Part shown: positions 13,513 through 64,000 of the stretch, one piece after another | How the letters are laid out: every line of letters begins with the position of its first letter | How positions within the stretch are numbered: position 1 is the first letter of the stretch | Source: Naegleria gruberi | Taxonomy: Eukaryota | NCBI GenBank assembly: GCA_000004985.1 | Contig: GG738874.1 | Length of the DNA: 64,000 nucleotides | Direction: 5' to 3' (one strand) | Notes under the pieces: generated by a model | Databases searched by the model: none | Seen by the model: the letters and a program-made list of their open reading frames with translations, nothing else | What the model was told of the DNA's origin: nothing | Translations under genes and position numbers: made by a program

Positions 13513-14837
13513 TTATTCTTCAATCTTGGCAACACGTGCAGTACCACGTCCAGCTCTCTTTGGCTTGGAGAATTTCAAAGAAGAGTCAGACTTTGGAGGG
13601 TGAATATACTTGACGAGGAATTCGTGAGTCAAATCTTCAACATCTGAAATTTCCAAACTAGCTTCAAGCTTCAAAACACCAGATGAGGTAGCAGTTTGAA
13701 CTACGTGACCCTTACTGGCACTGGCTAACATTCTTTGTTTGACCTTGGATTTAGTTGGGCAACTATAGATGAAAACAGTCTTTCCTGAATTTCCTTGATT
13801 TTCTTCATGTTCATATTGGAAGTGGAAGAAAATGTAACGTGGTTCAGAATCAGAAATATTTTCCTTCAATTCTTCAACACTAATAGCATTGTTTCCAGTA
13901 CGTTCGTTTGAAAGAACAATAATTTCCTTTTCAGTGTCAATCTTCAAAACAACCATCAATGATGTACCCTTTTCTAAATTAGAAAGAGCTCTCTTGGCAG
14001 ATTCTTCAAATGGGAAAGAAACACCACGTGAAGCTCCACCGCTACTACCGCTATCAGAAGATGATGATGATGTAGGTTGAGTGGTTGGAGACTTTGACTC
14101 GGCATCCTTTTCAATTTGGTCAAAAGCTTCCTTTTCTTCCATCAATTTTTGTCTTTCTTGTTCAGTGTATAATTCAATGTCATGAATGTGACGTTGTGAT
14201 TTGTGAACAAAGGAAAAGTTTTGATATTTCAAATCATCAACACAAACTGTGTGATAATCTCCAGCCCAAATATTAGCACCATAAAGTGAGTTGGAAAAAC
14301 CAATTTGTGCCTTTAATCCAGCCATAGATGAAGAGTACAACATCTTTTCACGAACCTTTGCTCTCTCTGGAACATACCAAATCAACAACCATTCATAATT
14401 TTGATTTTGATCTGAAACTGTTGTATCTAAACGGAAGAAGAAGTAACAAGGAGCCAAAGGTTTCTTTGCAACACTTTCAGACATGGCATTATAATCAGAG
14501 GAAATATCAGAGAGTGGATGGGTTTCAACAAGATCCATGATTGGAGGTTCATGATCCAAGAGAATACGTACTTTAATCCATCTGATTTTATCCTGTTCGG
14601 TAAAGGCAACACTTGATGAAGATGATGAAAGAACAGAATCAGAGGCTGATTTAGCACGTAAGAAGGCAGATAAAGCTTCGTTTGTAAGTTCAATTCCTAT
14701 TATTATAAATAATTATTCATTCAACAAAGATGATTAAATCATCACATTTTCATCATCAAATGACGGCAAGAGTTTAGAGTTTCAAAAGAAAGATTTTTTA
14801 AAAACTGAAAAAATTTCCACCTACCTGTCTTGGCCAT
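13513..14837 (-). CDS. twfA: twinfilin (two ADF-H domains), complement(join(13513..14696,14825..14837))
   Basis: Two ADF-H/cofilin-like domains aligning with twinfilin (PCYFFFRLD..YEWLLIWYVPERAKVREKMLYSSS; second domain ..MLASASK..); a 13-nt first exon ATGGCCAAGACAG (aaaaaaATG context) is spliced GTAGGT..AATAG (128-nt intron) to give MAKTGIELTNEALSAFLRAK, matching the twinfilin N-terminus. Confidence 0.8.
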
Positions 14838-14990
14838 TTTTTTGTTAGAAAAAATCACATTTCGCTCAGCCGAACGTTGTGAAATCGTCATCAACTTGAC
14901 TTTCAATTTATTGTTGGACAGGTTGTTGGGTAAAGCTTTCAACAGAGCTCATAACATTAAGGCGATTAGAGTTTAAGTTTTCTTTAGCTA

Positions 14991-15325
14991 GTGGACTTTC
15001 GTGATGTTTCTCCTTCAATAAATAGGGTTGAGAAAGTCCTTTTCCTTTCACTTCAACCATTCTCTCTTCAAACTCAAATAAATCATAAACTCTGTAGGTA
15101 GATCTGGAAATTTGAATTCTTCCTGGATGACTTGCTTGAATGTAAACCACTCACACAGAAATAAGCATCTCCAATGGTCTTTATCTTGTCAACCAAGTGA
15201 ATTTCAGTCAACTTGTTAAATCCTTGAACAATTAAATTCAATATTTGAATTCAAAATTTGGACCAGTTCACTTGGTAATGTTGAACTCCGAGCTGTAAAT
15301 CCAACCATATCACTGAAAATACATT
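14991..15325 (-). pseudogene. truncated, internally deleted duplicate of the 3' end of the PAS/cyclase gene (paralogous to 59271..59810)
   Basis: 14991-15132 matches 59271-59412 and 15135-15325 matches 59627-59815 at about 90% identity, with roughly 215 bp deleted between them; the 80-aa ORF 14908..15150 reproduces the cyclase C-terminus (PGRIQISRSTYRVYDLFEFEERMVEVKGKGLSQ.YLLKEKHHE). Confidence 0.7.
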
Positions 15326-15358
15326 GTTTTTTAACCTTTCCTGTTTCATCCTTAAAAA

Positions 15359-15889
15359 TCACCTCCTCACAACTGCTCCACTTCTACATTGATATAATTT
15401 CAAAGATTGTACTATTTTTCCAAAATGTGAAAGAAATCTCTTTCTGATTTTTGCATCATGTTCCATTATTGCATAATTATCACCACCAGATGAAATATCA
15501 TAAATTCTCCTCTTCAAATAAGGTCCAATAATTTCGAATAATACAACCAAACTCTTTCTTGGATAGAAAATCATCAAGGTTTGATTCGGAGTGTGCACAA
15601 CCTTTGTAATTGGATCCACAAATTCCTTTCCTCTATTAAAGTACTTCCGCCTGTGACTTGCAATGTTTGACCTCTTGGTATTGAAATATCGGGATTGATT
15701 ATTGTCATCAATTTGTAAACTGGCAATATAATTGAACATGAGTTTTTGTTGAATAGTTTGATGACCACAACATGTTGCTATCAGACAAGGATCCTCTTTG
15801 AAAAGAGATGAGAAGTATGTCCACGGTAGATATTCAAAAATATGACCAATAATTTCCGAAGGGAGCACCTGATTCATTGTTGTGACCAT
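15359..15889 (-). CDS. F-box-like hypothetical protein
   Basis: 176-aa ORF; the N-terminus LPSEIIGHIFEYLP resembles an F-box; no other domain found. Confidence 0.4.
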   Translation of the reverse strand: MVTTMNQVLPSEIIGHIFEYLPWTYFSSLFKEDPCLIATCCGHQTIQQKLMFNYIASLQIDDNNQSRYFNTKRSNIASHRRKYFNRGKEFVDPITKVVHTPNQTLMIFYPRKSLVVLFEIIGPYLKRRIYDISSGGDNYAIMEHDAKIRKRFLSHFGKIVQSLKLYQCRSGAVVRR

Positions 15890-16260
15890 TTTTTTTTGAT
15901 GCCTTTACAATATCTTTGGACTTGATCAAATTATTTGGAAATAATAATCCTTTTCATCAACCCTTTCCCAAGATAAAAAAATATGCCAAACGCATCAGTC
16001 TTGATTTTTGTAATTTGGGATACGGATATTGAAATATTTTACGTAAATGTTTAAGTATTTTGTATATTCTAGCTTGATTTGGAACTAAGAAACAGCAATA
16101 AGGTGATTGTCAACCATGGGATGATCCAAATTGTTCAACAGAAGCAATTTGAAGAACCCATTTAGAATTAAGCCTAATGAAACGATAGCCTATAATACTC
16201 ATAAAGGTACTCCTGATTCTAATATAAAAATTAATTTATTATTTTTACTTTTCATGACAA

Positions 16261-16332
16261 CGGCCGTATAGCTCAGTGGTAGAGCTTCTCTCTCGTAAGG
16301 AGAAGGTCGTGGGTTCAAACCCCATTGCGGCC
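16261..16332 (+). tRNA. tRNA-Thr (anticodon CGT)
   Basis: 72-nt cloverleaf: acceptor GGCCGTA/TGCGGCC, D-arm AGCTCAGTGGTAGAGC, anticodon stem-loop TCTCT-CTCGTAA-GGAGA, T-arm GTGGGTTCAAACCCCAT. Confidence 0.85.
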
Positions 16333-16340
16333 AAATTTGA

Positions 16341-16511
16341 ATTTTAATCTTTTGCTATTCCTCGCTTTGTTTTTTGATATTTTTACTTTATTTTTTCAAA
16401 TTCTCACATTTACAAGTTTATCTACATGTGGTTCAATTTTCCAATCTTTAATTCAAGAAATGATTGAGAATGAGCTGTTCTAAAGTGGGTACATGATTTT
16501 TCGCTTGAATT
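16341..16511 (+). repeat. repeat R1 (bipartite: 16341-16358 and 16437-16511), direct copy of R2; begins 9 bp after the tRNA-Thr 3' end
   Basis: ttttaatcttttgctatt plus the 75-bp core ttttccaatctttaattcaagaaatgattgagaa..tacatgatttttcgcttgaattt are both repeated at 18384-18495; R1 has an extra 78-bp insert between the two parts. Confidence 0.6.
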
Positions 16512-16923
16512 TCAGGTTAAAAATGAGAAACTACCACAATGCATACATTACAAAAAATGCACAAAACATCAACTGCACATCACACAATTGTGAATGTGTC
16601 GTCTTTGCAGAGTGGTTCTTCAGCCACTATTAGAGGATCTGCAACAACATCATCACCCAACACAATAACAATGTTGCAAACTACGAGTTGACATCTTCAA
16701 TAATATCATTTTTTATGATTGGAAATATCACTAATATCCTGGAAATGAAGTAATTTTATTGTTCAACCAGGTTAATTGGAAAACTAGTAGTACGTGGACA
16801 AGTCACTCGAGTTGCGTAGCCTTAATTTTTTCAAATCCAACAAATCAAAAAAATGGCAGTACCAGAGGGAAAACTCTACCACAATTTTACAACTACTTTG
16901 TCCCAAATCATCATCACAATTTA

Positions 16924-18372
16924 TTATTTTTCCATAGACAATACTCTTTGAAAACTCAACAAGTTCACCATTCTCTCCTTCATTCCTAAATCAATAACTT
17001 CCGATCTTGCATGCTTTTCCATGTGCTCAAAATAATGGCACCCATCGCAAAGCAATTCAAATTCCTTCAATTTTTCTACTTGTTCCTCTTCGGTCATTCC
17101 AAGAATTAACTTGTACTCATTAACATTATTGGCTATTTCCCTCTCTTCCTCATCGATATCTTCTGTTGCTTGAGCTCTCTTCTTCACACCATCCCTATTC
17201 TTGTGATGCACATGGAATATCTTTCCCAATTCTGAATTAGATTCAAAAGACAAGCCACATTCCTGACATTTTCCTCCCATCAGAGTGATCATCTTTTCAT
17301 GACAATATTGCCAATTAGAACCACCTTCAACATTCCTTGCATGTTCCAAACCATGACAAGGTCTGCACAATACTTCCAACTTTTCATTCTTCTTGAACCA
17401 ATCAGCTCCAAGCTTTCTGAATTCGGGAATGAATTTTGTTGTACTCTTAAATGTCTTTGTAAAGTCATCATCTTTATACATGACATGATGAAGAGTGAAT
17501 GCATTAACCTCATGTAAATGTTCCATTTCAATACGACATCTATTGCACTTGATTGACAAATCATCCCTCTCCAACACTTCTCTTAAAAAAGTATGAATGG
17601 CAGCTTGCTTTTTTCTGGAAATGTAAACAGCACATCTGGGACATGTTTCATCATCCTTCAATTTAACAGAACCAAAACAAAAATGGCAGTTGACACCTTC
17701 AGCTCTAATCTTGTTAATCCTGTCACTCATTTGAAGTATAGTCTTTTTGGAACATTCCTTGCACTTGTCCCTATTTGTCTTCGAAACAAGTTGGCCGCAT
17801 CCACACAACCCTTGGTCTCTACGAGTGCATTTTCGTGCTCTTTCCAACTCGTTAGCTCTCTCACGTTGCTCATTGGATTGAGCAATGTGATTACTTAACT
17901 TCTTAACAAAATCTCTAAAGCCATTAGAGTATTGAAAAGTTCCATCATGAATAGCATTTTTGAATTTCTACCAAGTTTCTATTCTCTTTTCATTATTCTT
18001 GAATTTATCTGGGAAATGATCATACAATTCTTGGACATATGCAAGATAAGCCCTTGCCAATTTCGAACCATATTCATGAGAAATATTGGATGAAGGTCTT
18101 GGAGGACACTTGTTGAGTTTAACATTATCCAATATGGGAAGGAATTCTTCCAAGATTGAATTGTTGGGTTGATTTCTCTTCTTGGTTGGTGGAGTTGATT
18201 CAATGGTAGAATCCCTTCTCTTCTTACTATCATTACTTGATGAAGGCTTGTTGGAATTATTTGAAGATTGACCAGAGTTGCTAATAATAATACATGATGA
18301 TTGACTAGTTGATGATGATGAAGCCTTTCTGGTAGACTTTGGTTGAATTGATAACGTGGTTGATGATAACAC
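16924..18372 (-). CDS. Cys-rich protein with two tandem HNH-nuclease (ββα-Me) motifs; single ORF interrupted by one in-frame TAG (17968-17970), so a pseudogene or read-through
   Basis: ORFs 17968..18372 and 16924..17847 share one frame, separated only by TGG-TAG-AAA; the N-terminus is S/N-rich; a zinc ribbon follows (CTRRDQGLCGCG..CKEC); two HNH cores are present (C-x2-C..LHHV..N..LCRPCHGLEH and CQEC..HVHHKNRDG..LLCDGCHYFEH); the ATG lies 12 bp from repeat R2. Confidence 0.55.
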
Positions 18373-18383
18373 TTGATTTCCTT

Positions 18384-18495
18384 TTTAATCTTTTGCTATT
18401 TTCTCCACCATTTCGCTAATTTTCCAATCTTTAATTCAAGAAATGATTGAGAACTAGCTGTTCTAATCTTGGTACATGATTTTTCGCTTGAATTT
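18384..18495 (+). repeat. repeat R2 (18384-18400 plus 18420-18495), direct copy of R1; forms the 5' flank of the HNH gene
   Basis: See R1; about 90% identity over the 75-bp core. Confidence 0.6.
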
Positions 18496-18899
18496 TTGCC
18501 TTGAAAAACATCAGATTTTCATAATGTTGTAAATTTACCAATGCCTTGAAAAACATGTTTTCAGTCGTAATTGAGTAAACAATCAGGAGTTTGGCTAATT
18601 TTAAAAATGCATGTTGTTATTGTATTGTTATCACCATCAAGTTCTTTCACAATCTCCATTTTTGAGTGACAACACATTCATTTTGATAAGGATGTACGAT
18701 TTGTTCACATTTCACACAAACAAACCTTCTATTTATGACCAATTTGAAGAAGAAACTCTTTTCAACAAAAATTTTCACGTTAATGAATCTGATTATCAAT
18801 ACATTCATTGTATTTTTGAATTTCACTTGATTGAAATTTTTCAAGGCTTTGAAATTTCAATGGATAGTACGTTTCATAGTTCAGTAAAGATGAACAGCA

Positions 18900-19155
18900 C
18901 ATGTGTCGGCTGTACTGTCAAGGCTTGGGATGAGAGTATACTAATATCTGGAATCATCTTCTTCATCTTGTCACTCATTGGGATTGTATTCTTTTTGGAA
19001 CATTCTTTGCACTTGTCCCTATTTGTCTTCGAAACAGGTTGGCCGCATCCACACAACCCTTGTTCTCTACGAGTGCATTTTCTTGCTCTTTCCAATTCAT
19101 TAGCCCTCTCACGTTGCTCATTGGATTGAGCAATGTGATTACTCAAGTTCTTCAC
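18900..19155 (-). pseudogene. decayed partial second copy of the HNH-protein gene (corresponds to about 17690-17900 of copy 1)
   Basis: 18985-19155 is about 95% identical to 17743-17900; it encodes ..LSNHIAQSNEQRERANELERARKCTRREQGLCGCGQPVSKTNRDKCKECSKK and then diverges with indels; it is truncated at both ends. Confidence 0.55.
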
Positions 19156-19325
19156 AAATTGATTTTAATAAACTAGTTCCCAATTTTATTCCAAACGTTT
19201 TTCTTGTCCATTAAGTTTCTTACTTCACTCTTTTTCAATCAATATGGAATTATTTACAAAATTCTTCAAAAGAGCAAACAAATCAGTCACCTTTCTTTAA
19301 ATACCTTTCAAAAACATTAAAAAAA

Positions 19326-20617
19326 ATGGAAGTAATCAAATGTGTCGTTCTCGGTGATGGTGCTGTTGGCAAGTCCAATCTCCTCATTTCCTACACTTGT
19401 GAAGGTATCTTTCCAGAAGATTACGTTCCCACCGTAATGGACAATTATTGCAAGACCGTACAAGTCTTCCTCCCAGAAGAAAAACCGCACACTCACCACC
19501 ATCACAACGATACATCGAGCGTGAACAGTTTGAACTCGTCGTCATCGGTTGGCGCCAACCATCAACAACAACAACAACATACAACCAACAATAATATTAA
19601 TAATACTAATAATAATAATAATAGTAATAATAATAGTGGTGGTAGTAGTAGTAATGAACAGAGTAATTCACCAGCTTTGAATCAGTCAGCCTCATCCACT
19701 TCGGAAAAAAAGTTGACCATTGTATCATCACATGCTTTGAATAATTCAAACATTTCAACTGGAGGAGGAGAAGAAAATCAAGTTTTAGAAACAGAGGAAG
19801 ATCATACCTTGCTAACACCAACTTATATTTCTCTACAATTGTGTGATACATCGGGTCAAGAAGGTTTGTTTTTATTGAATTTCATTGAACTTATTCCAAT
19901 ATTTTTTATTGTTTAAACCTTTCGAATAATTTCATTCACTTTCGAATAATAGAATATGATCGATTACGTTCTGATCTATCTGATTATGCTTCTGCTGATG
20001 TATTTTTGTTTTGTTTTTCATTGGATAATCCTCAGTCATTGGAAAATCTTCATTCCAAGTGGTATGATGAAGTGGTCAATTATTTCCAAACTCACAAACA
20101 CCAAGGAGGAGGTGTCTTATCACTTTTTGGAGCTATATATTCATACTTTGGTTTTGGAGGTGTGACTTCTAGTACCAACACTGATGAAACCAGCAAGGAA
20201 GGTCACAACATTACAGACAACTTGCCACCAATCATTTTGGTTGGTACCAAATTGGATAAATTAAAAACAACAACTGTGGAAATAACCGAATCAGCAACAG
20301 GTCAAATATTGGAAAAACCAATTTCTACCGATACAAGAAGGAGAAATAATTCCATCTATCACATGTTTGGAAATGTGACCAAGATAAATGAAGCTCCACA
20401 ATTATTGAAAATTAGAGAACAAGCTCTCCAAGTCAAGAAGGATATGAAGGCAGTTGCCTATGTGGAGGTTAGTTCAAAAACAATGGAAAATATCAATGAA
20501 ATGTTCGAGGATATTGTCGTTCCAGTTGTTTTGAAGAGAAGAAAAGAAATGGAAAAGAAGAGAAAGGGTACTATATCACCAGGTTCTACAACTGCATCTT
20601 CATCATCCAATCAGTAG
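19326..20617 (+). CDS. Rho/Rac-family small GTPase, atypical, with an N/Q/H-rich insert and no CAAX; join(19326..19863,19953..20617)
   Basis: G1 motif [11 protein letters not shown]; switch YVPTVMDNY; DTSGQE|[10 protein letters not shown] spans an 89-nt GT..AG intron; Rho motifs LVGTKLD and EVSSKT follow; about 110 aa of low complexity are inserted between β2 and β3; the C-terminus ..SSSSNQ lacks a prenylation motif. Confidence 0.7.
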
Positions 20618-29385: not shown

Positions 29386-31845
29386 ATGAAAGAACTCGAC
29401 TTTTCAAAGAGTATTTTCATCATCACGATATTATTATTATTAATTCTTCATCATTTTGAATACTATTCTAATCAAGGAGGGTTCGTGTTGGGGGCTGGTG
29501 TTGTTCGTACCCTTGTTGGTAGTATGAGAGGATTGGATAAAGTATTAGCCACTCAAACTTCTCTTAATCTTCCCTCGAGTATCACTCATGAAGATGCGAA
29601 CGGTGAATACTATATTTCAGAGTCTTACATGGGGGTGATATGGAGAGTATTCAATAATGGGACAATGGTAAGATTTGCAGGAACAGGTTTTCAAGGATAT
29701 AATGGAGATGGAAAATTGGCTTTAGAGACAGATTTGAATTATCCAGGAAGTTTAATGATGTATGATGGAGAGCTATACTTTTCCGATCTTTCCAATTATT
29801 TAGTTAGGAAGGTTGATAGGAATGGCTATGTGAGAACAGTGGCTGGTTCAATTAAATCATATGGATATGCTGACAATGTCCTTGCAAATGAAACAAATAT
29901 TTATCCCACTGGGATTTATGTTACAAAATTGGGAGAAGTTTTAATTGCTGATTCTTCCATTCACAGAATTCGAAAGGTGCTAAATAATGGAACGATAATA
30001 ACGATTGCAGGAAATGGAAAACAAGGTTATAACGGAGAAGGTTTATCTGGTTTAGATTCTGCACTTAAGGAACCATATTCTGTAGACATGGACTCTGATG
30101 GAAACATCTATTTTGCAGATAAGGGTAATTCTATAATTCGAAAAATATTAGCATCCAATGGAGCAGTGATAACAGTTGCTGGAAACGGAACTAAGGGATA
30201 TTTTGCAAATACTATTGATGCCTTGTCTTCTCAACTTGATACTCCAGTCATGGTGACTGTAGGTAAGAATGGAGAATTTTACATTGTGACTGGTAATTTA
30301 ATAAGAAAGGTTTCTAGTGATGGATTAATTTCTACTGTTGTAGGAACTGGGGCTACAGGTCCTTTTGAAGATAATATTCTAGCCGTCAATGCCACCTTGG
30401 GTATTCCTTCGGATGTGAAGATTAGCAGAAATTCAGAGTTGTTGATAGTGGATACTTTCAATTATAGAATTAGAAAAGTTCTTTTGAATGGAACGATTCA
30501 AACAATTGCAGGAAATGGATTCGACCGATTCAATGGAGACGGATTACAAGCAAAGGACACATTACTAAATAGCCCATCCTCTTTAATTGTAAACCCAGAT
30601 CAAAGCTTGTACATTGTTGAGAGAGATAATCAGAGAATTAGAAAAGTTGATCCAAACGGAATTGTGTCAACTTTTATTGGTACTGGAAAGAGAGGCTTTA
30701 ATGGTGATAGGTTGGCTTTGGACGTGCAATTGTACAATCCTACATCTATCTCTATTGATTCGAATGGAACAATTTGGTTCTCAGAGGCCAATAGCCATCG
30801 AATTCGTAAATTATTAAGCAATGGAACAGTGATAACAGTGGTTGGGTCCACCACTGGAAGTACAGCTGATGGTCCTGCATTGCAAACAAAACTCACAATT
30901 CCAAACGGCATCGGTTTTGACTTGGATGGATCTCTATTAATTGCTGACAGATATAATCACAGAATTAGAAAGTTATTAAGTAATGGGACTTTAATTACTA
31001 TTGCAGGAACAGGTGTTTCTGGAAAGGGAGGTGATGATATTCTAGCCACTAATTCCTCCTTGAATCAACCTTCTGGAGTTTGTACCATGCCAAATGGTGA
31101 CATTCTAATTGCTGATAGAGCCAATCATCAAATTCGTCGTCTGTTTGTTAATGGCACTATCAAAACAATTGCAGGAACAGGCAGTAGTGGGTATAATGGA
31201 GACGGTTTACCAGCAACAAGCTCCACACTTAATTATCCTCAAACGGTTACAATGTTTCATAATGAAATTTATATGGTTGATACTTCTAATAGTCGAATTA
31301 GAAAGATACTCAATAATGGGACAATGATTACTATTGTTGGCAATGGAATAAGAGGTGACAGTTTGGATGGATTAGATCCACTTGAATCTAAATTGAAATC
31401 ACCCTATCATGTCACCTTTGATTCTAGAGGAAGAATGTACATTTCTGATTACTCGAATCATAAAATTAAGGTTGTCGATTTCAATTCAAGCCCAGAAACC
31501 AATACAACTTTCAATAATAGAACATTACCAAGCACTGATAGTAATACTACATCTGCAATCAGTAATTCAACCTTAAACAATAATTCGACAAATTTATATA
31601 ATAGTACAGTGATTGGAAATAATAGTCTACCAAATAATGGATCTCTCATTCCATCGACTAGTAATAGTACAATAGTAACACCAACATCGAATCATTCTTT
31701 CACAAGCATACCAATTAGAAACAGTACTTTTGTTTCACAATCTCAAAAAAGTTGCATTCCAACAAAGTGGTTGGTTCTTCTTCTGTTCGTAGCATTCTTA
31801 TTGACAACAAATCCACAAGATTATGACAATAAAAATGTTGAATAA
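29386..31845 (+). CDS. secreted or GPI-anchored NHL-repeat β-propeller protein with a C-terminal N/S/T-rich stalk
   Basis: Signal peptide; at least 12 NHL-type repeats (..D..N.YVAD..NHRIRKV..NGTI.TIAG.G); Ser/Thr/Asn-rich tail ending in a hydrophobic segment (WLVLLLFVAFLL). Confidence 0.7.
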   Translation: MKELDFSKSIFIITILLLLILHHFEYYSNQGGFVLGAGVVRTLVGSMRGLDKVLATQTSLNLPSSITHEDANGEYYISESYMGVIWRVFNNGTMVRFAGTGFQGYNGDGKLALETDLNYPGSLMMYDGELYFSDLSNYLVRKVDRNGYVRTVAGSIKSYGYADNVLANETNIYPTGIYVTKLGEVLIADSSIHRIRKVLNNGTIITIAGNGKQGYNGEGLSGLDSALKEPYSVDMDSDGNIYFADKGNSIIRKILASNGAVITVAGNGTKGYFANTIDALSSQLDTPVMVTVGKNGEFYIVTGNLIRKVSSDGLISTVVGTGATGPFEDNILAVNATLGIPSDVKISRNSELLIVDTFNYRIRKVLLNGTIQTIAGNGFDRFNGDGLQAKDTLLNSPSSLIVNPDQSLYIVERDNQRIRKVDPNGIVSTFIGTGKRGFNGDRLALDVQLYNPTSISIDSNGTIWFSEANSHRIRKLLSNGTVITVVGSTTGSTADGPALQTKLTIPNGIGFDLDGSLLIADRYNHRIRKLLSNGTLITIAGTGVSGKGGDDILATNSSLNQPSGVCTMPNGDILIADRANHQIRRLFVNGTIKTIAGTGSSGYNGDGLPATSSTLNYPQTVTMFHNEIYMVDTSNSRIRKILNNGTMITIVGNGIRGDSLDGLDPLESKLKSPYHVTFDSRGRMYISDYSNHKIKVVDFNSSPETNTTFNNRTLPSTDSNTTSAISNSTLNNNSTNLYNSTVIGNNSLPNNGSLIPSTSNSTIVTPTSNHSFTSIPIRNSTFVSQSQKSCIPTKWLVLLLFVAFLLTTNPQDYDNKNVE

Positions 31846-58952: not shown

Positions 58953-59026
58953 GCAGCGATAGATCAGTTGGTTAGATCGTAAGCCTAACACGCTTAAGGT
59001 CGCGGGTTCAAGCCCCGCTCGCTGTA
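58953..59026 (+). tRNA. tRNA-Val (anticodon AAC)
   Basis: 74-nt cloverleaf: acceptor GCAGCGA/TCGCTGT (G1·U72), D-arm TAGATCAGTTGGTTAGATC, anticodon stem-loop TAAGC-CTAACAC-GCTTA, T-arm GCGGGTTCAAGCCCCGC. Confidence 0.85.
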
Positions 59027-59144: not shown

Positions 59145-62100
59145 TTATTTCTTTTCAGATTCATCTATTACAGAATTTTCATAATAATTCTTGAGTTCTT
59201 GCTGTTCTTGTTCAACAAGCTTGTTAGAACTCGAAGGAGTATGATAGGAAACTTCTAGATCACATCCAAGTGGATTTTCATGATGTTTCTCCTTCAATAA
59301 ATAGGTTTGAGAAAGTCCTTTTCCTTTCACTTCAACCATTCTCTCTTCAAACTCAAATAAATCATAAACTCTTCCATAGGTAGATCTGGAAATTTGAATT
59401 CTTCCTGGAAGTGAAGTTGATTCCATTCGAGAGGCAGTATTGATTGTATCTCCCCACAAATCGTAGGCAAACTTTTTAAATCCAATCACTCCACCAACTG
59501 CATCTCCTGTGTGAAGACCAATTCTCAAATTAATGGCTGTGTTATTACTCTGATTGATATTTTTCAAGAAGGACATGATTTCAATGGCAAATCTCAACAT
59601 TCTTTCTGGATGATCCGATGACTTGCTTGAATGTAAACCACTCACACAGAAATAAGCATCTCCAATGGTCTTAATCTTGTCAACCAAGTGAACTTCTGTC
59701 AACTTGTCAAATCCTTGAACAATTAAATTCAATATTTGTACCAACTCACTTGGTTGTAATTTTGAACTCCAAGCTGTAAAGCCAACCATGTCACTGAAAA
59801 ATACAGTGATATCATTCACTTTTTCATATAAATTCTCTTCTCCATTTTTCAATCTTGAAGCCATTGACATTGGCAATATATTCAATAATAAATCTTCACT
59901 CTTCTTCTTTTCCTCTGCAATCAAAATACTCTGTTTCTTTTCAGGTGTAATATCTCGAACAAAAACAATCAAAATTTGCTTCTTTTCATGAATTGAAATT
60001 GAAACTGAAACTTTTGAGGAGAATGAAGTCTTGTTCTTTCTCAGAGCCATTGCTTCAAATGCATCATGACTTTCACCTGTTGAAATTAATTTGGTTATTC
60101 TTTGAGAATACTCATCTGTGAATAGAGATTGAATGGAGAGTCCCAAAACTTGTGACCTCGAATGTCCAAACATTTCCTCAGCTGAATTGTTGAAAATGGT
60201 GATATTTCCATCCTTATCACAAATAATGGCAGAATCAACACCTCCATTCAAAATAGTCTTGACCATTTCAATCTTGTCTTCCTTTTCATCGGAACTCATC
60301 TCAAATTTGGACATTAACTTTGTTATCTTTGAGGATGAAGGAATAGAATTACTCATGACATAATCTTTCAAAATCAAATTATTGTCAATCAATTCCAAAT
60401 TTACATAATTCAACATCATTCTCAAACATGCTCTTTCCTTCCAATATCTTTTCAATGAAGAGTAACAAATCAATGCGTATAAAAGTGTGGCAACAAAGCA
60501 CAACACAATCATGCTAGCTGTTAGGCCAATACTTGAAATCTTCTCGTGTTCTACAAGGGTGGATATAAGAAGTTGTAAATTGGTAGTTATTGTTTGTGTT
60601 ATGTAAAAAATGTCTGTAAAATAAGCAGTCACCATTTGTGTCATACTCTTTTGTTGCCCAAAGAATACTTCGTTGTAATCTAAAGACTTGGTAATATAAT
60701 CCGTCAGTGCAATGGTCAAACTATGACAAGGATCTTCCATAGGAATGGTATCGTTACAAAAGTCTCCTAATATATAGTCTACATCTTGATATTTTCCAAC
60801 AACGGCTGATTGATAGGATGTTGATTCATCACCCACAATCACATAATTCCAGTAAGTTCTCAAGTCAAGTAAATCTTGCTTATTTTCCTCATTGAATATC
60901 AAAGGCAAAGTAGTGAGGTACTTTACTCTTTGAAAGTACCAAAGTAACCTAAAGTTGGTTCTACTTGTTCTTAGGGAAACTGCATTGATTGAACCAACAA
61001 CATTCATAGATTGGGAACTATTTTTGGTATTTGATTGTAGCTCTACAACAACCAAGACGGAACATAGGCAAACAATTATGACGAGTACAAAACTTCCCAT
61101 CATTACTAAATTTCTCATTTTAAAAAAGGAATTAGACGAGCTTATTGAGTCATCAATTTTCTTGTCAAAATTGTGATAAACCTTTCCGACTTCGTCTTTT
61201 GCAATCCTTCTGAATACCTCCCTTAGCTCAGTGACTATTCGTCTGGCATGCACAAAGATAATGGAAAAGTAAATCATTACAATTAGTAGATACGTGGTTA
61301 GAACAGAAATCACAGTAATCCATAATTGCTCAAAATTAGCTTCCAAAACATCAATACTTTCTTCAACAAATTTTGAACACAGACCATTAAAAGCTAGAGA
61401 CATGGATATTCTATTGTAAAATAGAAATAGGTATGGATAATTATCATCTAAATGGGATGTTAACACCTCAATATTATTAAATTGCTTCAACAACGTTTTA
61501 CCGTGTGTTAATATTGAAGACAAGTAGAATTGAATAGATGTATTGGTAGACTTATATCCTGGAATATCGCTTGTTCCGTCCAGTGATTCATTAGCAATAG
61601 GAAGTTTAAGATCATACTGATTTTTCAAATATTCCTTAGCAACTTCAGGCATTAACAAATTATTATCGCCTGCATAGATGACAGTACCAACTGTATCTAA
61701 CAATGTCTTTGTGTATATAATTGTAGAGTTGAGTAATTTTTCAGTATTGTTTCCTCTTGAATAGAACTCGGTTTGAAGAGCTCCTATTTGTGCCAATAAC
61801 TTGTAAGGCACAGATGTCATTAAGCATACTTTCTCTTGCATGGACATTCTTTGGTTAATACTCTGAGAAAATGAAAAGGCTATTGGAGCAACAATACATA
61901 TAGTAGACAATGAGACAACACAAAAAATGAAAAACAATACAGAATACACAACCGTTGACATTGGTGTGTTAATGGCTGTGCGCAAGATATGATCTTTTCT
62001 ATCTTCATTATCCTCGGCAGTTACACTTACAGAATCCCAATTTTCCAAGTTGGCTCTTTGTGAGTCTATACTGAATCTAGAGGTAGTTCCTTTGTGAAAT

Positions 62101-64000
62101 GATTCGTGGGCTTTGGATATTTGGAGAGTTGATCTATTCTTCTTATCATCATCATTGTCCTGTGCTTCTTCAAATAAATCTCTTGCCAAATTGATTTCCC
62201 ATTTGTATTTTTCCAAATATGAGGCATAGGATCTGAGAAGTGTCTTGTTGGATCGGTTGGCAATCAATAAATTGTCATAGATGGTGTCACATTCATTGTA
62301 AATGGAACAGCTTGTTCTATTGATGTGCTCCAATTTATCAATGGATGGTTTGTCATTCAGTAATTCTTTGAAGAATGATTTGTGACATCTAGATAAGGAT
62401 TTGACTTTCTTTTCAACCACTGCAAGTTTTCTCAAAACTTCAAGATTATTTCCATGGAATGCATGATATTCAATCTCTTCATTTCTCAACATGATGTTGA
62501 ACAATTGAGCTAGTGATGGTGAATTTCTTTGAGCTTTTTGTAAAAGAGCCAAACCAATACTGTATGATTGAGAATCATCATATTCCTCAATTCCACCAAA
62601 TGAAACAAATAATGCACTCACAATCATCAAATCAACATTTTCAATTGATTTCACAAATGTATTCACACTGTGCTTGGCCAAATCAAAATCACTTCCTTCT
62701 TCTGTTTTGAGCTCTGATTTGCAATTCATTGAAAATCGAATGAAGAGTGCCAAATTGTCTTGTCTCTTTTTGGAATCATCCAATGTTAATAAAATATTTG
62801 AACTATCTGCCTTGTTGGAAATTAAATTTCTGATTGATTTCAATTTACGTGAAATGAAAAAGTGAGCACCAATAAAACCAAGAATGAATGAAAGAATGGC
62901 AAGTACACAAGTAACAACAGTCATAATTCCACCAATCACTTGTTGGTCCAATGAAGTTGAAATGAACTGCAAAATTAATGGTGAAATTGGAGTGAATGCT
63001 TTCAATGAAATGAAGGCAATATATAAACAATTCTCCCATTTCCTGAAGAATGGCAATGTTTTCAACATGATTACCAATAATAGTAAATTCATGACAATTT
63101 TCAAAATTGAAGCAATGAATGAATATTGAGATGTGCAAAGAATGGTGGCAACTAAACTCAATTGATTTACCAAATTGAAGAGTATGAATGTTGAAGTTGA
63201 ATACATGGAGAATAAAATCTTTCTATTCAATTCAGCACTTGTTTCAACTGTCAAATAACTTGCAAGCATTGTCAGGACAATATTCAACAGAATACCTATG
63301 CATGCAATGGCCGTAAATATGATTTGTAGCACTGAAGAGAAGTCTTCATTTGGAAAGTAATAGAGTGATCCAATTGAAGAAGTACTTGGAGTAATTAAAA
63401 TACAATGAACTGAGAGCATGAATAAGGAAAAGGTTCTCTGAAATATCAATGAATTCAAAACAAATGATTTGAACTTTTCAAAGAATTTTCCTCCCTTTCT
63501 TGATGCCCATTTACAATAATAAATGGCCAATCCTGTCATGATTTGTAAAACAACAAACAACACAGATAAGGCAACAATAAGATAATAAGGATAGAATTCA
63601 GAGGCCAAATTGAGTGGAAAATACAAAGCTCTCCAAATCCAACCTGGAATCACTCCCCACATCTTGTTAGAAATGCCACTTGTCAATGTTGTTGAGTTAT
63701 CATCCACCAAAGGTGTTGTAATGGAAGAAACAATGATTGAATTATAAATCAAATAGGCATGATAGAATATCATCCAAAAGAACATGTAAGTATTCTCTTT
63801 CCCAATCAATGACTCTTTGGATCTTAGTGTGGTTACAAATGAGAACAAACTAATTCCTGCAGTATTCACTATGCTTTTCCCTGACAAGGAGGAAGCATAC
63901 GAACCAGATGTGGCAGAAGTCCCTCCACCAAACTGAGAATTACTATCACCACCATCATTAGTGGTTCTATTGGGGTGAATAGAGAATTGAGGTTGTGCTA
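59145..64000 (-). CDS. multi-pass transmembrane, PAS-domain, class III adenylate/guanylate cyclase; 5'-partial (the frame stays open past the window end)
   Basis: More than 1600 codons in one frame; two clusters of TM helices; PAS-like segment (DKDGNITIFNNSAEEMFGHSRSQVLGLSIQSLF); class III cyclase core (FFSDMVGFT..KIKTIGDAYFCVSG..GLHTGDAVGGVIG..WGDTINTASRMES); the listed M at 63887 is a TTG, and the upstream frame has no stop to the end of the sequence. Confidence 0.8.
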   Translation of the reverse strand, partial: AQPQFSIHPNRTTNDGGDSNSQFGGGTSATSGSYASSLSGKSIVNTAGISLFSFVTTLRSKESLIGKENTYMFFWMIFYHAYLIYNSIIVSSITTPLVDDNSTTLTSGISNKMWGVIPGWIWRALYFPLNLASEFYPYYLIVALSVLFVVLQIMTGLAIYYCKWASRKGGKFFEKFKSFVLNSLIFQRTFSLFMLSVHCILITPSTSSIGSLYYFPNEDFSSVLQIIFTAIACIGILLNIVLTMLASYLTVETSAELNRKILFSMYSTSTFILFNLVNQLSLVATILCTSQYSFIASILKIVMNLLLLVIMLKTLPFFRKWENCLYIAFISLKAFTPISPLILQFISTSLDQQVIGGIMTVVTCVLAILSFILGFIGAHFFISRKLKSIRNLISNKADSSNILLTLDDSKKRQDNLALFIRFSMNCKSELKTEEGSDFDLAKHSVNTFVKSIENVDLMIVSALFVSFGGIEEYDDSQSYSIGLALLQKAQRNSPSLAQLFNIMLRNEEIEYHAFHGNNLEVLRKLAVVEKKVKSLSRCHKSFFKELLNDKPSIDKLEHINRTSCSIYNECDTIYDNLLIANRSNKTLLRSYASYLEKYKWEINLARDLFEEAQDNDDDKKNRSTLQISKAHESFHKGTTSRFSIDSQRANLENWDSVSVTAEDNEDRKDHILRTAINTPMSTVVYSVLFFIFCVVSLSTICIVAPIAFSFSQSINQRMSMQEKVCLMTSVPYKLLAQIGALQTEFYSRGNNTEKLLNSTIIYTKTLLDTVGTVIYAGDNNLLMPEVAKEYLKNQYDLKLPIANESLDGTSDIPGYKSTNTSIQFYLSSILTHGKTLLKQFNNIEVLTSHLDDNYPYLFLFYNRISMSLAFNGLCSKFVEESIDVLEANFEQLWITVISVLTTYLLIVMIYFSIIFVHARRIVTELREVFRRIAKDEVGKVYHNFDKKIDDSISSSNSFFKMRNLVMMGSFVLVIIVCLCSVLVVVELQSNTKNSSQSMNVVGSINAVSLRTSRTNFRLLWYFQRVKYLTTLPLIFNEENKQDLLDLRTYWNYVIVGDESTSYQSAVVGKYQDVDYILGDFCNDTIPMEDPCHSLTIALTDYITKSLDYNEVFFGQQKSMTQMVTAYFTDIFYITQTITTNLQLLISTLVEHEKISSIGLTASMIVLCFVATLLYALICYSSLKRYWKERACLRMMLNYVNLELIDNNLILKDYVMSNSIPSSSKITKLMSKFEMSSDEKEDKIEMVKTILNGGVDSAIICDKDGNITIFNNSAEEMFGHSRSQVLGLSIQSLFTDEYSQRITKLISTGESHDAFEAMALRKNKTSFSSKVSVSISIHEKKQILIVFVRDITPEKKQSILIAEEKKKSEDLLLNILPMSMASRLKNGEENLYEKVNDITVFFSDMVGFTAWSSKLQPSELVQILNLIVQGFDKLTEVHLVDKIKTIGDAYFCVSGLHSSKSSDHPERMLRFAIEIMSFLKNINQSNNTAINLRIGLHTGDAVGGVIGFKKFAYDLWGDTINTASRMESTSLPGRIQISRSTYGRVYDLFEFEERMVEVKGKGLSQTYLLKEKHHENPLGCDLEVSYHTPSSSNKLVEQEQQELKNYYENSVIDESEKK

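What the first reader, a model, noticed from the sequence alone, without database searches (positions are those of the whole stretch)
14991..15325. Internally deleted 335-bp copy of the 3' end of the PAS-cyclase gene, about 44 kb from the parent
14991-15325 reproduces 59271-59815 (same strand) at about 90% identity, with roughly 215 bp of the catalytic region deleted. The 80-aa ORF 14908..15150 recapitulates the cyclase C-terminus. It lies between twinfilin and an F-box gene, 900 bp from tRNA-Thr and the HNH element, which suggests local segmental duplication and rearrangement activity here. It could act as a pseudogene or as a source of antisense or small RNA against the cyclase.
Basis: seen in the sequence. 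Interest (0 to 1): 0.5.

Follow-up and report, generated by a model that had tools for sequence, protein, structure and literature searches.

The report
Dead fragment of a cyclase gene
This is a broken, non-coding leftover copy of part of a nearby signalling-enzyme (cyclase) gene in the amoeba Naegleria gruberi, sitting in the spacer between two other genes and drifting like junk DNA; it is an ordinary pseudogene fragment.

Summary
Window 14990-15326 copies the cyclase gene segment 59269-59808 on the same strand, in two collinear blocks (95% and 86% identity, E about 1e-58 and 1e-64). 209 bp (59410-59618) are missing between the blocks.

The window is Naegleria gruberi NEG-M. The copy covers almost exactly the cyclase catalytic domain (parent residues about 1360-1540), not the true C-terminus. 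A 13-bp tandem duplication and the 209-bp deletion break the reading frame, so three frames are needed to read it.

A second N. gruberi-like lineage (ENA metagenome contig L001) carries the start of the same copy at the same place, with the same 13-bp duplication. Between the two lineages the copy differs by 2.9%, like the spacers (3.4-5.4%) and unlike the neighbouring ORF (0.6%). It therefore looks unconstrained.

It lies at the edge of about 4.2 kb that a related Naegleria-like lineage lacks; that block also holds tRNA-Thr and a multi-copy HNH-like gene.

Best reading: an unprocessed pseudogene fragment, probably created by break-repair copying. Nothing supports an antisense or small-RNA role. 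Low interest.

The parts
15128..15326 (-). Copy block B. It matches parent 59617-59808 (parent residues about 1360-1424, the start of the cyclase catalytic domain). Weak similarity may extend to about 15345.
   Evidence: BLASTN (85.9%, E about 1e-64). Alignments. Pfam Guanylate_cyc E=5e-8 for ORF 15083..15241. blastx gives 93% aa identity to the parent in frame 3. Present in L001.
15248..15260 (-). 13-bp tandem duplication inside block B (approximate coordinates). It causes the first frameshift and is shared with the second lineage, L001.
   Evidence: Alignments. Three-frame translation.
15126..15129 (-). Deletion junction. 209 bp of the parent (59410-59618) are missing. The junction has 2-nt TC microhomology and causes the second frameshift. 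In the parent the breakpoints lie in an imperfect direct repeat, TCATCCAGAAAGAAT / TCACTTCCAGGAAGAAT.
   Evidence: alignment. The two BLAST blocks overlap by 2 nt. The two blocks are read in different frames by blastx.
14990..15127 (-). Copy block A. It matches parent 59269-59409 (parent residues about 1494-1540, the end of the catalytic domain), with a 3-bp in-frame loss.
   Evidence: BLASTN (95.0%, E about 1e-58).. blastx gives 88% aa identity to the parent in frame 1.
59145..64000 (-). Parent gene: a multi-pass membrane, PAS and class III cyclase protein. The ORF runs off the window end. The source segment is 59269-59808, and the part absent from the copy is 59410-59618.
   Evidence: ORF. 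Pfam Guanylate_cyc E=5e-53 and PAS_9 E=5e-15.
15359..15889 (-). Its stop codon lies about 30 nt (25-32, depending on where homology is taken to start) upstream of the copy.
   Evidence: Exact match to EFC43389.1. Only homologue is P0122 from L001. Pfam F-box-like E=0.081. 0.6% divergence between lineages against about 4% in the spacers.
13513..14837 (-). Downstream neighbour: twinfilin NAEGRDRAFT_58328. Exon 1 is ATGGCCAAGACAG at 14837..14825, followed by a GT intron. Its start codon is 153 bp from the end of the copy.
   Evidence: Pfam Cofilin_ADF, two matched stretches. Annotated protein P0124 starts MAKTGIEL. Same exon 1 in L004.
14990..19158 (.). About 4.2 kb of lineage-specific DNA between the twinfilin and Ras-like genes. 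The copy is at its twinfilin-side edge. It also holds the orphan ORF, tRNA-Thr(CGU) at 16262-16333, the HNH-like gene at about 16924-18844, and a partial second HNH copy at 18376-19158. The boundaries are approximate and inferred.
   Evidence: tblastx synteny. L004 has 298 bp between the Ras and twinfilin start codons, against 4488 bp in the window. tRNA. Repeats. HNH copies.

Best explanation
The feature is an unprocessed (DNA-level) pseudogene fragment in Naegleria gruberi. A stretch of about 540 bp encoding the catalytic domain of the PAS-cyclase gene was copied, in the same orientation, to a site 44 kb away on the same scaffold. It landed about 30 nt after the stop codon of orphan gene NAEGRDRAFT_68752 and about 150 bp before the twinfilin start codon.

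Shown:
- The copy cannot encode a cyclase. It has lost 209 bp (about 70 codons) of the catalytic core, including the 'DLWGDTINTASRME' region, and it carries two frameshifts.
- It predates the split of two N. gruberi lineages.
- Since that split it has changed at the same rate as the surrounding spacer DNA.

Inferred:
- It arose when a chromosome break in this rearrangement-prone spacer was repaired by copying from the cyclase gene in cis (templated insertion, or 'filler DNA').
- The 209-bp gap comes either from a template switch during that synthesis or from a later microhomology-mediated deletion.
- Its only present role is passive. It is spacer DNA that probably forms much of the orphan gene's 3' untranslated and terminator region and the distal part of the twinfilin promoter.
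For: - Homology and collinearity.
- Closest donor: the window's cyclase is the best match in both blocks (88% and 93% aa) against 73-83% for the next N. gruberi paralogues P0001 and P0123.
- Disablement: three reading frames are needed. There is a 13-bp duplication and a 209-bp deletion. Radical replacements include W1373R, K1376T and T1528P. Only a 43-residue stretch still matches the Pfam cyclase model.
- Age and neutrality: L001, an independent ENA contig from a second lineage, has the same junction and the same 13-bp duplication but keeps a CAA and a G that the window copy has lost. Divergence between lineages is 4/139 in the copy against 3/531 in the orphan ORF (p=0.037), and it is indistinguishable from the spacers (p=0.63).
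- Not a retrocopy or a transposon-borne fragment: no poly(A), no gene 3' end, no terminal inverted repeats or target-site duplications around it.
- Break-repair context: the donor is in cis, the copy is about 340 bp, and the internal junction has 2-nt microhomology. It lies at the edge of a 4.2-kb lineage-specific block next to a multi-copy HNH-like gene that has its own partial second copy alongside.
Against: - No empty-site allele was found, so the outer junctions cannot be read for microhomology. The origin mechanism therefore remains an inference.
- Only the first 139 bp or so of the copy is covered by the second lineage. Whether the 209-bp deletion is shared is unknown.
- The whole N. gruberi genome could not be searched, and the parent itself is missing from the protein database. 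An unannotated, closer donor paralogue cannot be excluded.
- The neutrality test rests on few sites (4 differences).
- Transcription was not testable.
Confidence: 0.8

Rival explanations
1. The fragment is cargo of a mobile element. On this reading the 4.2-kb block, or part of it, is a transposable or homing unit associated with the multi-copy HNH-like gene. That unit picked up a piece of the cyclase gene, as Pack-MULEs and Helitrons pick up gene fragments, and carried it here.
For: The HNH-like gene has at least 4 copies at 90% identity or more on different N. gruberi scaffolds, two of them tiny scaffolds typical of repeats, plus a partial second copy next to it. The block is absent from the L004/L005 lineage. 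The copy lies at the block's edge.
Against: No terminal inverted repeats or target-site duplications bracket the copy or the block. The orphan ORF next to the copy is single-copy, so the unit 'orphan ORF plus fragment' is not repeated. The copy is about 1.6 kb and a tRNA gene away from the HNH ORF. The copy (4.6% from its parent) is younger than, or unrelated in age to, the HNH duplicates (6-9%).
Confidence: 0.1
2. It is the last remnant of a once larger, possibly complete, duplicate of the cyclase gene. Most of that duplicate has since been removed by deletions.
For: The copy shows several deletions (209, 3, 3 and 1 bp). Weak similarity may continue about 20 nt upstream of 15326.
Against: With only 4.6% divergence there has been little time to delete more than 4 kb cleanly. 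A constrained orphan ORF sits where the upstream cyclase sequence would have been. No other parent-derived pieces occur nearby.
Confidence: 0.07
3. It is a regulatory RNA source. Transcripts of the fragment would act as antisense RNA, or would be converted to small RNAs, to tune the parent cyclase or its close paralogues.
For: 323 nt at about 95% identity to the parent would suffice for RNA-RNA pairing. Naegleria encodes candidate Dicer and Argonaute proteins (PMC13315211). The fragment very probably lies in a transcribed 3' region of the orphan gene.
Against: Its orientation is direct and on the same strand as both neighbours, so read-through gives sense RNA. There is no inverted repeat partner or hairpin. 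There is no Rfam family. It diverges between lineages at the neutral rate with indels.
Confidence: 0.04
4. It is a processed (RNA-mediated) pseudogene fragment or a short coding exon. That is, it is either a retrocopy of the cyclase mRNA, or the 80-aa or 52-aa ORFs encode a small protein.
For: ORFs of 80 and 52 aa exist. The 52-aa ORF still scores as a cyclase domain piece.
Against: There is no poly(A) tract, and the copy lacks the mRNA 3' end (the last 124 bp of coding sequence plus the UTR). The deleted segment has no GT-AG ends. The ORFs start at GTG and TTG, overlap in different frames, and are not in the protein collection. The window copy has lost a codon and changed D to N relative to L001.
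Confidence: 0.02

Closest known systems
Unprocessed (duplicated) pseudogene fragments, i.e. dispersed partial gene duplicates
   Same: It has DNA-level homology to a functional parent on the same chromosome. It carries frameshifts and an internal deletion. It has no poly(A) tail. It diverges neutrally between lineages.
   Different: It is very short (about 340 bp) and matches one protein domain almost exactly. It sits in a gene-dense protist spacer only 521 bp long, so it now makes up most of the spacer between two genes.
Templated insertions or 'filler DNA' at repaired double-strand breaks (described in plants, yeast, flies and mammals, e.g. PMC2686159 and PMC2567098 as listed)
   Same: The size range is hundreds of bp. 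The donor is in cis. The structure is patchwork, two donor segments joined at a 2-nt microhomology. The location is a rearrangement-prone interval.
   Different: The outer junctions cannot be examined without an empty site, so the defining junction signatures are untested here. I did not find such events described for Naegleria in the papers searched.
Gene-fragment capture by Pack-MULE or Helitron elements
   Same: A gene fragment lies inside lineage-specific inserted DNA that also holds a multi-copy gene.
   Different: No terminal inverted repeats, target-site duplications or Helitron termini were found. There is no transposase. The fragment-bearing unit is not known to be repeated.
Class III adenylate/guanylate cyclase catalytic domain (Pfam PF00211)
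   Same: The sequence derives from such a domain, and 43 residues still match the model (E=5e-8).
   Different: About 70 core codons are deleted and the frame is broken twice. It cannot fold or catalyse.

Membership tests
Unprocessed pseudogene fragment | Significant DNA homology to a functional parent gene, beyond any coding constraint | tested here: met
   Two collinear blocks, E about 1e-58 and 1e-64, with 4.6% substitutions. The parent is closer than any other paralogue retrieved.
Unprocessed pseudogene fragment | Disabling lesions (frameshifts, truncation) | tested here: met
   A 13-bp duplication and a 209-bp deletion shift the frame. Both gene ends are missing.
Unprocessed pseudogene fragment | Evolution without purifying selection | tested here: met
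   Window against L001: 2.9% plus an indel in the copy, 0.6% in the adjacent ORF (p=0.037), 3.4-5.4% in the spacers (p=0.63). The sample is small and covers only 139 bp of the copy.
Processed pseudogene (retrocopy) | Poly(A) tract at the 3' end and inclusion of the mRNA 3' end | tested here: not met
   The copy stops 124 bp before the parent's stop codon. The sequence after 14990 is AGCTAAAGAAAACTTAAAC, with no A-run.
Processed pseudogene (retrocopy) | Flanking target-site duplications | tested here: not met
   No direct repeats bracket 14990-15345.
Templated insertion / filler DNA from break repair | Short ectopic copy, often from a donor in cis, sometimes made of several donor patches joined at microhomology | tested here: met
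   About 340 bp. The donor is 44 kb away on the same strand. Two patches are joined at a 2-nt TC microhomology.
Templated insertion / filler DNA from break repair | Microhomology or blunt joins at the outer junctions, judged against the empty site | not testable with these tools
   No empty-site sequence was found. L001 already carries the copy. The L004/L005 spacers are too diverged to align. Both JGI metagenome scans were empty.
Transposon-captured gene fragment (Pack-MULE / Helitron-like) | Element termini (inverted repeats and target-site duplication, or Helitron ends) enclosing the fragment | tested here: not met
   The repeat search of 14500-19600 found no inverted or direct repeats at the edges of the copy or of the block.
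Transposon-captured gene fragment (Pack-MULE / Helitron-like) | The fragment-bearing unit is present in several genomic copies | tested here: inconclusive
   The copy is single in the window, and the adjacent orphan ORF is single-copy in the protein database. The whole N. gruberi genome could not be searched at the DNA level.
Functional class III cyclase domain (PF00211) | An intact catalytic domain of about 180 residues in one reading frame, including the transition-state Asn/Arg region | tested here: not met
   Only profile positions 36-78 of 183 match. Parent residues about 1424-1493 (SDHPERML...NTASRMESTSL) are deleted.
Pseudogene-derived antisense or siRNA locus | Antisense orientation to the parent transcript, or an inverted-repeat/hairpin arrangement | tested here: not met
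   The repeat is direct, on the same strand as the parent and both flanking genes. There is no inverted partner.
Pseudogene-derived antisense or siRNA locus | Small RNAs or antisense transcripts mapping to the locus | not testable with these tools
   No expression data were available.

The most novel reading that the evidence does not exclude
The 4.2-kb block between twinfilin and the Ras-like gene may be a previously undescribed kind of Naegleria mobile or break-inducing unit, built around the small, Naegleria-restricted, multi-copy HNH-like gene. On this reading its activity seeds nearby breaks that are patched with pieces of host genes. The cyclase fragment would then be a footprint of an active process that reshuffles gene fragments, and its transcript, carried in the orphan gene's 3' region, could feed an RNAi pathway against the cyclase subfamily.
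Probability: 0.06. Interest if true: 0.5.

Novelty: new member of a known kind. Interest (0 to 1): 0.14.

Why it matters
It matters little on its own, because partial gene duplicates that decay into pseudogene fragments are common in eukaryotic genomes.

It has modest value in three ways:
- It corrects annotation. The ORFs at 14908..15150 and 15083..15241 should not be called genes.
- It gives a small dated marker that predates the split of two N. gruberi lineages.
- It flags the twinfilin-Ras interval as a lineage-specific insertion hotspot that contains a multi-copy HNH-like gene. That hotspot may be worth a genome-wide look.

Tried and rejected
- **Other lineages carrying the copy or the parent.** Two exact-pattern scans of the JGI metagenome contigs both returned nothing: a 24-mer shared by copy and parent, and a 30-mer at the end of the orphan ORF.
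- **Chimeric protein query.** I joined the 80-aa ORF, the twinfilin N-terminus and the orphan ORF into one query to fish for more contigs. It returned only twinfilins. That was useful for synteny but not for the rest of the copy.
- **N. gruberi loci.** Exact-protein look-ups of P0001, P0123 and the orphan ORF found nothing on record, so no genome-wide DNA check was possible.
- **Naming the parent.** Exact look-up of ten Met-started C-terminal suffixes found none in the collection. The parent was also not returned at 100%.
- **Refining the block's edges.** Aligning the 298-bp L004 spacer to the window's 4.5-kb interval scored no better than shuffled sequence.
- **Intron-removal idea.** I asked whether the orphan ORF and the copy form one spliced gene. 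The only GT...AG across the stop codon is 22 nt, too short, so I rejected this.
- **Splicing origin of the 209-bp gap.** The deleted segment has no GT-AG ends, so I rejected this.
- **tRNA-targeted transduction.** tRNA-Val lies next to the parent and tRNA-Thr near the copy. I rejected this idea because the copy lacks the parent sequence adjacent to tRNA-Val.
- **Conserved stretch at 16334-16520.** An Rfam scan and RNA folds of this nearby stretch gave nothing.

Full report
**1.

A BLASTN of the window against itself finds two collinear, same-strand matches. They are 14990-15127 = 59269-59409 (95.0%, E about 1e-58) and 15126-15326 = 59617-59808 (85.9%, E about 1e-64). Apart from a local pair of repeats around 16.4-19.2 kb and a weak triplet near 30 kb, the window has no other repeats, so this is not a chance or low-complexity match.

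A global alignment shows that the copy lacks parent 59410-59618. That is 209 bp, not a multiple of three. The junction is at a 2-nt TC microhomology. In the parent the two breakpoints lie in an imperfect direct repeat (TCATCCAGAAAGAAT / TCACTTCCAGGAAGAAT).

Counting substitutions only, copy and parent differ at 15 of 323 sites, or 4.6%. The two blocks do not differ significantly in this respect (p=0.29). The lower BLAST identity of the upstream block is due to indels: a 13-bp tandem duplication, a 3-bp loss and a 1-bp loss.

**2. Organism and genes**

The 176-aa ORF 15359..15889(-) is identical to Naegleria gruberi EFC43389.1 / NAEGRDRAFT_68752. The twinfilin is NAEGRDRAFT_58328. The window is therefore from N. 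gruberi NEG-M.

The parent is an ORF of more than 1,580 aa, 59145..64000+(-), that runs off the window. It has PAS domains at residues 1208-1316 and a class III cyclase domain at 1355-1532.

The copy corresponds to parent residues about 1360-1540. That is the catalytic domain, not the gene's 3' end. The last 124 bp of coding sequence and the 3' flank, including tRNA-Val 119 bp downstream, are not copied.

Among the 120 best homologues retrieved plus the parent, the window's cyclase is the closest to both blocks of the copy (88% and 93% aa). The next N. gruberi paralogues, NAEGRDRAFT_31005 and 66783, reach 73-83%. The parent protein itself is missing from the protein collection, so an unannotated closer paralogue elsewhere in the genome cannot be formally excluded.

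**3. The copy is dead**

Reading the homologous pieces requires three frames, and blastx finds the two blocks in different frames. The lesions are:
- the 13-bp duplication, which breaks the frame after 'ELVQILN';
- the 209-bp deletion, which removes about 70 codons including the DLWGDTINTASRME core and shifts the frame again;
- both ends of the gene, which are absent.

Replacements include W1373R, K1376T and T1528P. Only 43 residues still match the Pfam model. The 80-aa and 52-aa ORFs start at GTG and TTG and overlap each other. The 80-aa ORF was checked and is absent from the 15-billion-protein collection.

**4. It is old enough to be shared and drifts neutrally**

The orphan ORF's only homologue anywhere is P0122. 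P0122 lies on a 1,596-bp ENA metagenome contig (L001; ERZ929261). L001 is collinear with window 16877-15207 at 94.5% identity, with many indels in the spacers. It represents a second N. gruberi-like lineage.

L001 contains tRNA-Thr, the orphan ORF and the first 139 bp or so of the cyclase copy, at the same position and with the same 13-bp duplication. It keeps a CAA codon and a G (the D codon) that the window copy has lost. The copy therefore predates the split and has decayed independently since.

Divergence between the two lineages, by region:

| Region | Differences | Comment |
|---|---|---|
| Cyclase copy | 4/139 (2.9%) plus one indel | p=0.037 against the ORF; p=0.63 against the spacers |
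| Orphan ORF | 3/531 (0.6%) | 2 synonymous, 1 not; p=4e-5 against the spacers |
| Spacers | 3.4-5.4% | many indels |
| tRNA-Thr | 0/72 | |

The sample is small, but there is no sign of constraint on the copy. The orphan ORF, in contrast, looks like a real gene.

**5. Context**

All three features are on the minus strand. In order they are the orphan ORF (stop codon at 15361-15359), the copy (15326-14990), and twinfilin. Twinfilin exon 1 is ATGGCCAAGACAG at 14837-14825, followed by a GT intron. This is confirmed by the annotated protein MAKTGIEL... and by the same exon in L004. The spacer between the two genes is 521 bp, and about 340 bp of it is the cyclase fragment.

Comparison with twinfilin loci from other Naegleria-like genomes shows the following.
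- In the lineage of L004/L005, twinfilin and the Ras-like gene (window 19326-20600) are head-to-head, with 298 bp between their start codons.
- In the window these start codons are 4,488 bp apart.
- N. lovaniensis and contig L002 have a different arrangement, with polyubiquitin about 300 bp upstream of twinfilin.

About 4.2 kb (roughly 14990-19158) is therefore specific to the N. gruberi lineage. It contains:
- the cyclase fragment, at its twinfilin-side edge;
- the orphan ORF;
- tRNA-Thr(CGU);
- an HNH-like gene (NAEGRDRAFT_68753);
- a partial second copy of that gene (18376-19158).

The HNH label is weak (Pfam HNH E=2.9, PHROG HNH E=0.027). The family is tiny, with 11 representatives in 1.84 billion proteins, and the named members are all from Naegleria (the rest come from unnamed environmental or read-archive contigs). 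N. gruberi has at least four copies at 90% identity or more on different scaffolds.

**6. How it probably arose (inference)**

A retrocopy is excluded by anatomy. There is no poly(A), no mRNA 3' end, no target-site duplication, and the gap has no GT-AG ends.

Transposon cargo is not supported. There are no terminal repeats, and the adjacent orphan ORF is single-copy.

The features do fit a break repaired by copying from an ectopic template (templated insertion, or filler DNA). These features are a short patch, a donor in cis and in the same orientation, two donor segments joined at a 2-nt microhomology, and a position at the edge of a lineage-specific insertion next to a repeated HNH-like gene. 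The internal gap would come from a template switch or from a later microhomology-mediated deletion.

This step cannot be proven here, because no empty site was found.

**7. What it does now**

Most likely it does nothing in its own right. By position it should form much of the orphan gene's 3' untranslated and terminator region and the distal twinfilin promoter.

The antisense or small-RNA idea is not supported. The repeat is direct and co-oriented with both neighbours, so read-through would be sense. There is no inverted partner or hairpin, no Rfam match, and divergence is at the neutral rate. Naegleria does have candidate Dicer and Argonaute genes (PMC13315211), so the idea is unlikely rather than impossible. 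It needs strand-specific RNA and small-RNA data.

**8. Verdict**

The fragment is an ordinary unprocessed pseudogene fragment, a new member of a well-known kind, and of low interest. The more interesting by-product is the lineage-specific 4.2-kb block with its multi-copy HNH-like gene.

Noticed in passing
window 16334-16520 (and 18376-18495): A 185-nt stretch just after tRNA-Thr is identical between the window and the second lineage (L001), while the flanking spacers differ by 3-5% with many indels. Part of it is repeated at 88-94% about 2 kb away. It has no Rfam match and no fold signal on either strand.
   Followed up: partly
window 16924-18844 (-), plus a partial copy at 18376-19158: HNH-like gene NAEGRDRAFT_68753 belongs to a tiny family whose named members are all from Naegleria (11 representatives in 1.84 billion proteins). 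N. gruberi has at least 4 copies at 90% identity or more on different scaffolds, two of them tiny, which suggests a recently amplified or mobile gene. Pfam gives no significant HNH hit.
   Followed up: partly
window about 14990-19158, compared with L004 1866-2165: The twinfilin and Ras-like genes are head-to-head with a 298-bp spacer in a related Naegleria-like lineage but 4.5 kb apart here. About 4.2 kb is lineage-specific inserted DNA. N. lovaniensis has yet another arrangement, with polyubiquitin upstream of twinfilin.
   Followed up: yes
window 15359-15889 (-): The 'F-box' ORF NAEGRDRAFT_68752 is an orphan, with one homologue among 5.8 billion proteins and no significant Pfam domain. It is nevertheless clearly constrained between two lineages (0.6% against about 4% in the spacers, p=4e-5).
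   Followed up: yes
window 59145-64000 (-): The large PAS-cyclase ORF (more than 1,580 aa, running off the window end) was not recovered as an annotated N. gruberi protein, either at 100% in the homology search or by exact look-up of C-terminal suffixes. The gene model may be missing or truncated in the public annotation.
   Followed up: partly
window 29941-30018, 30451-30519, 30937-31009: Three copies of about 70 nt at about 77% identity, spaced about 490 bp apart. They may be a coding repeat inside a gene.
   Followed up: no
window 58953-59026 (+): tRNA-Val(AAC) lies only 119 bp beyond the stop codon of the cyclase gene, convergent with it. The window has four tRNA genes scattered singly among protein-coding genes.
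   Followed up: no
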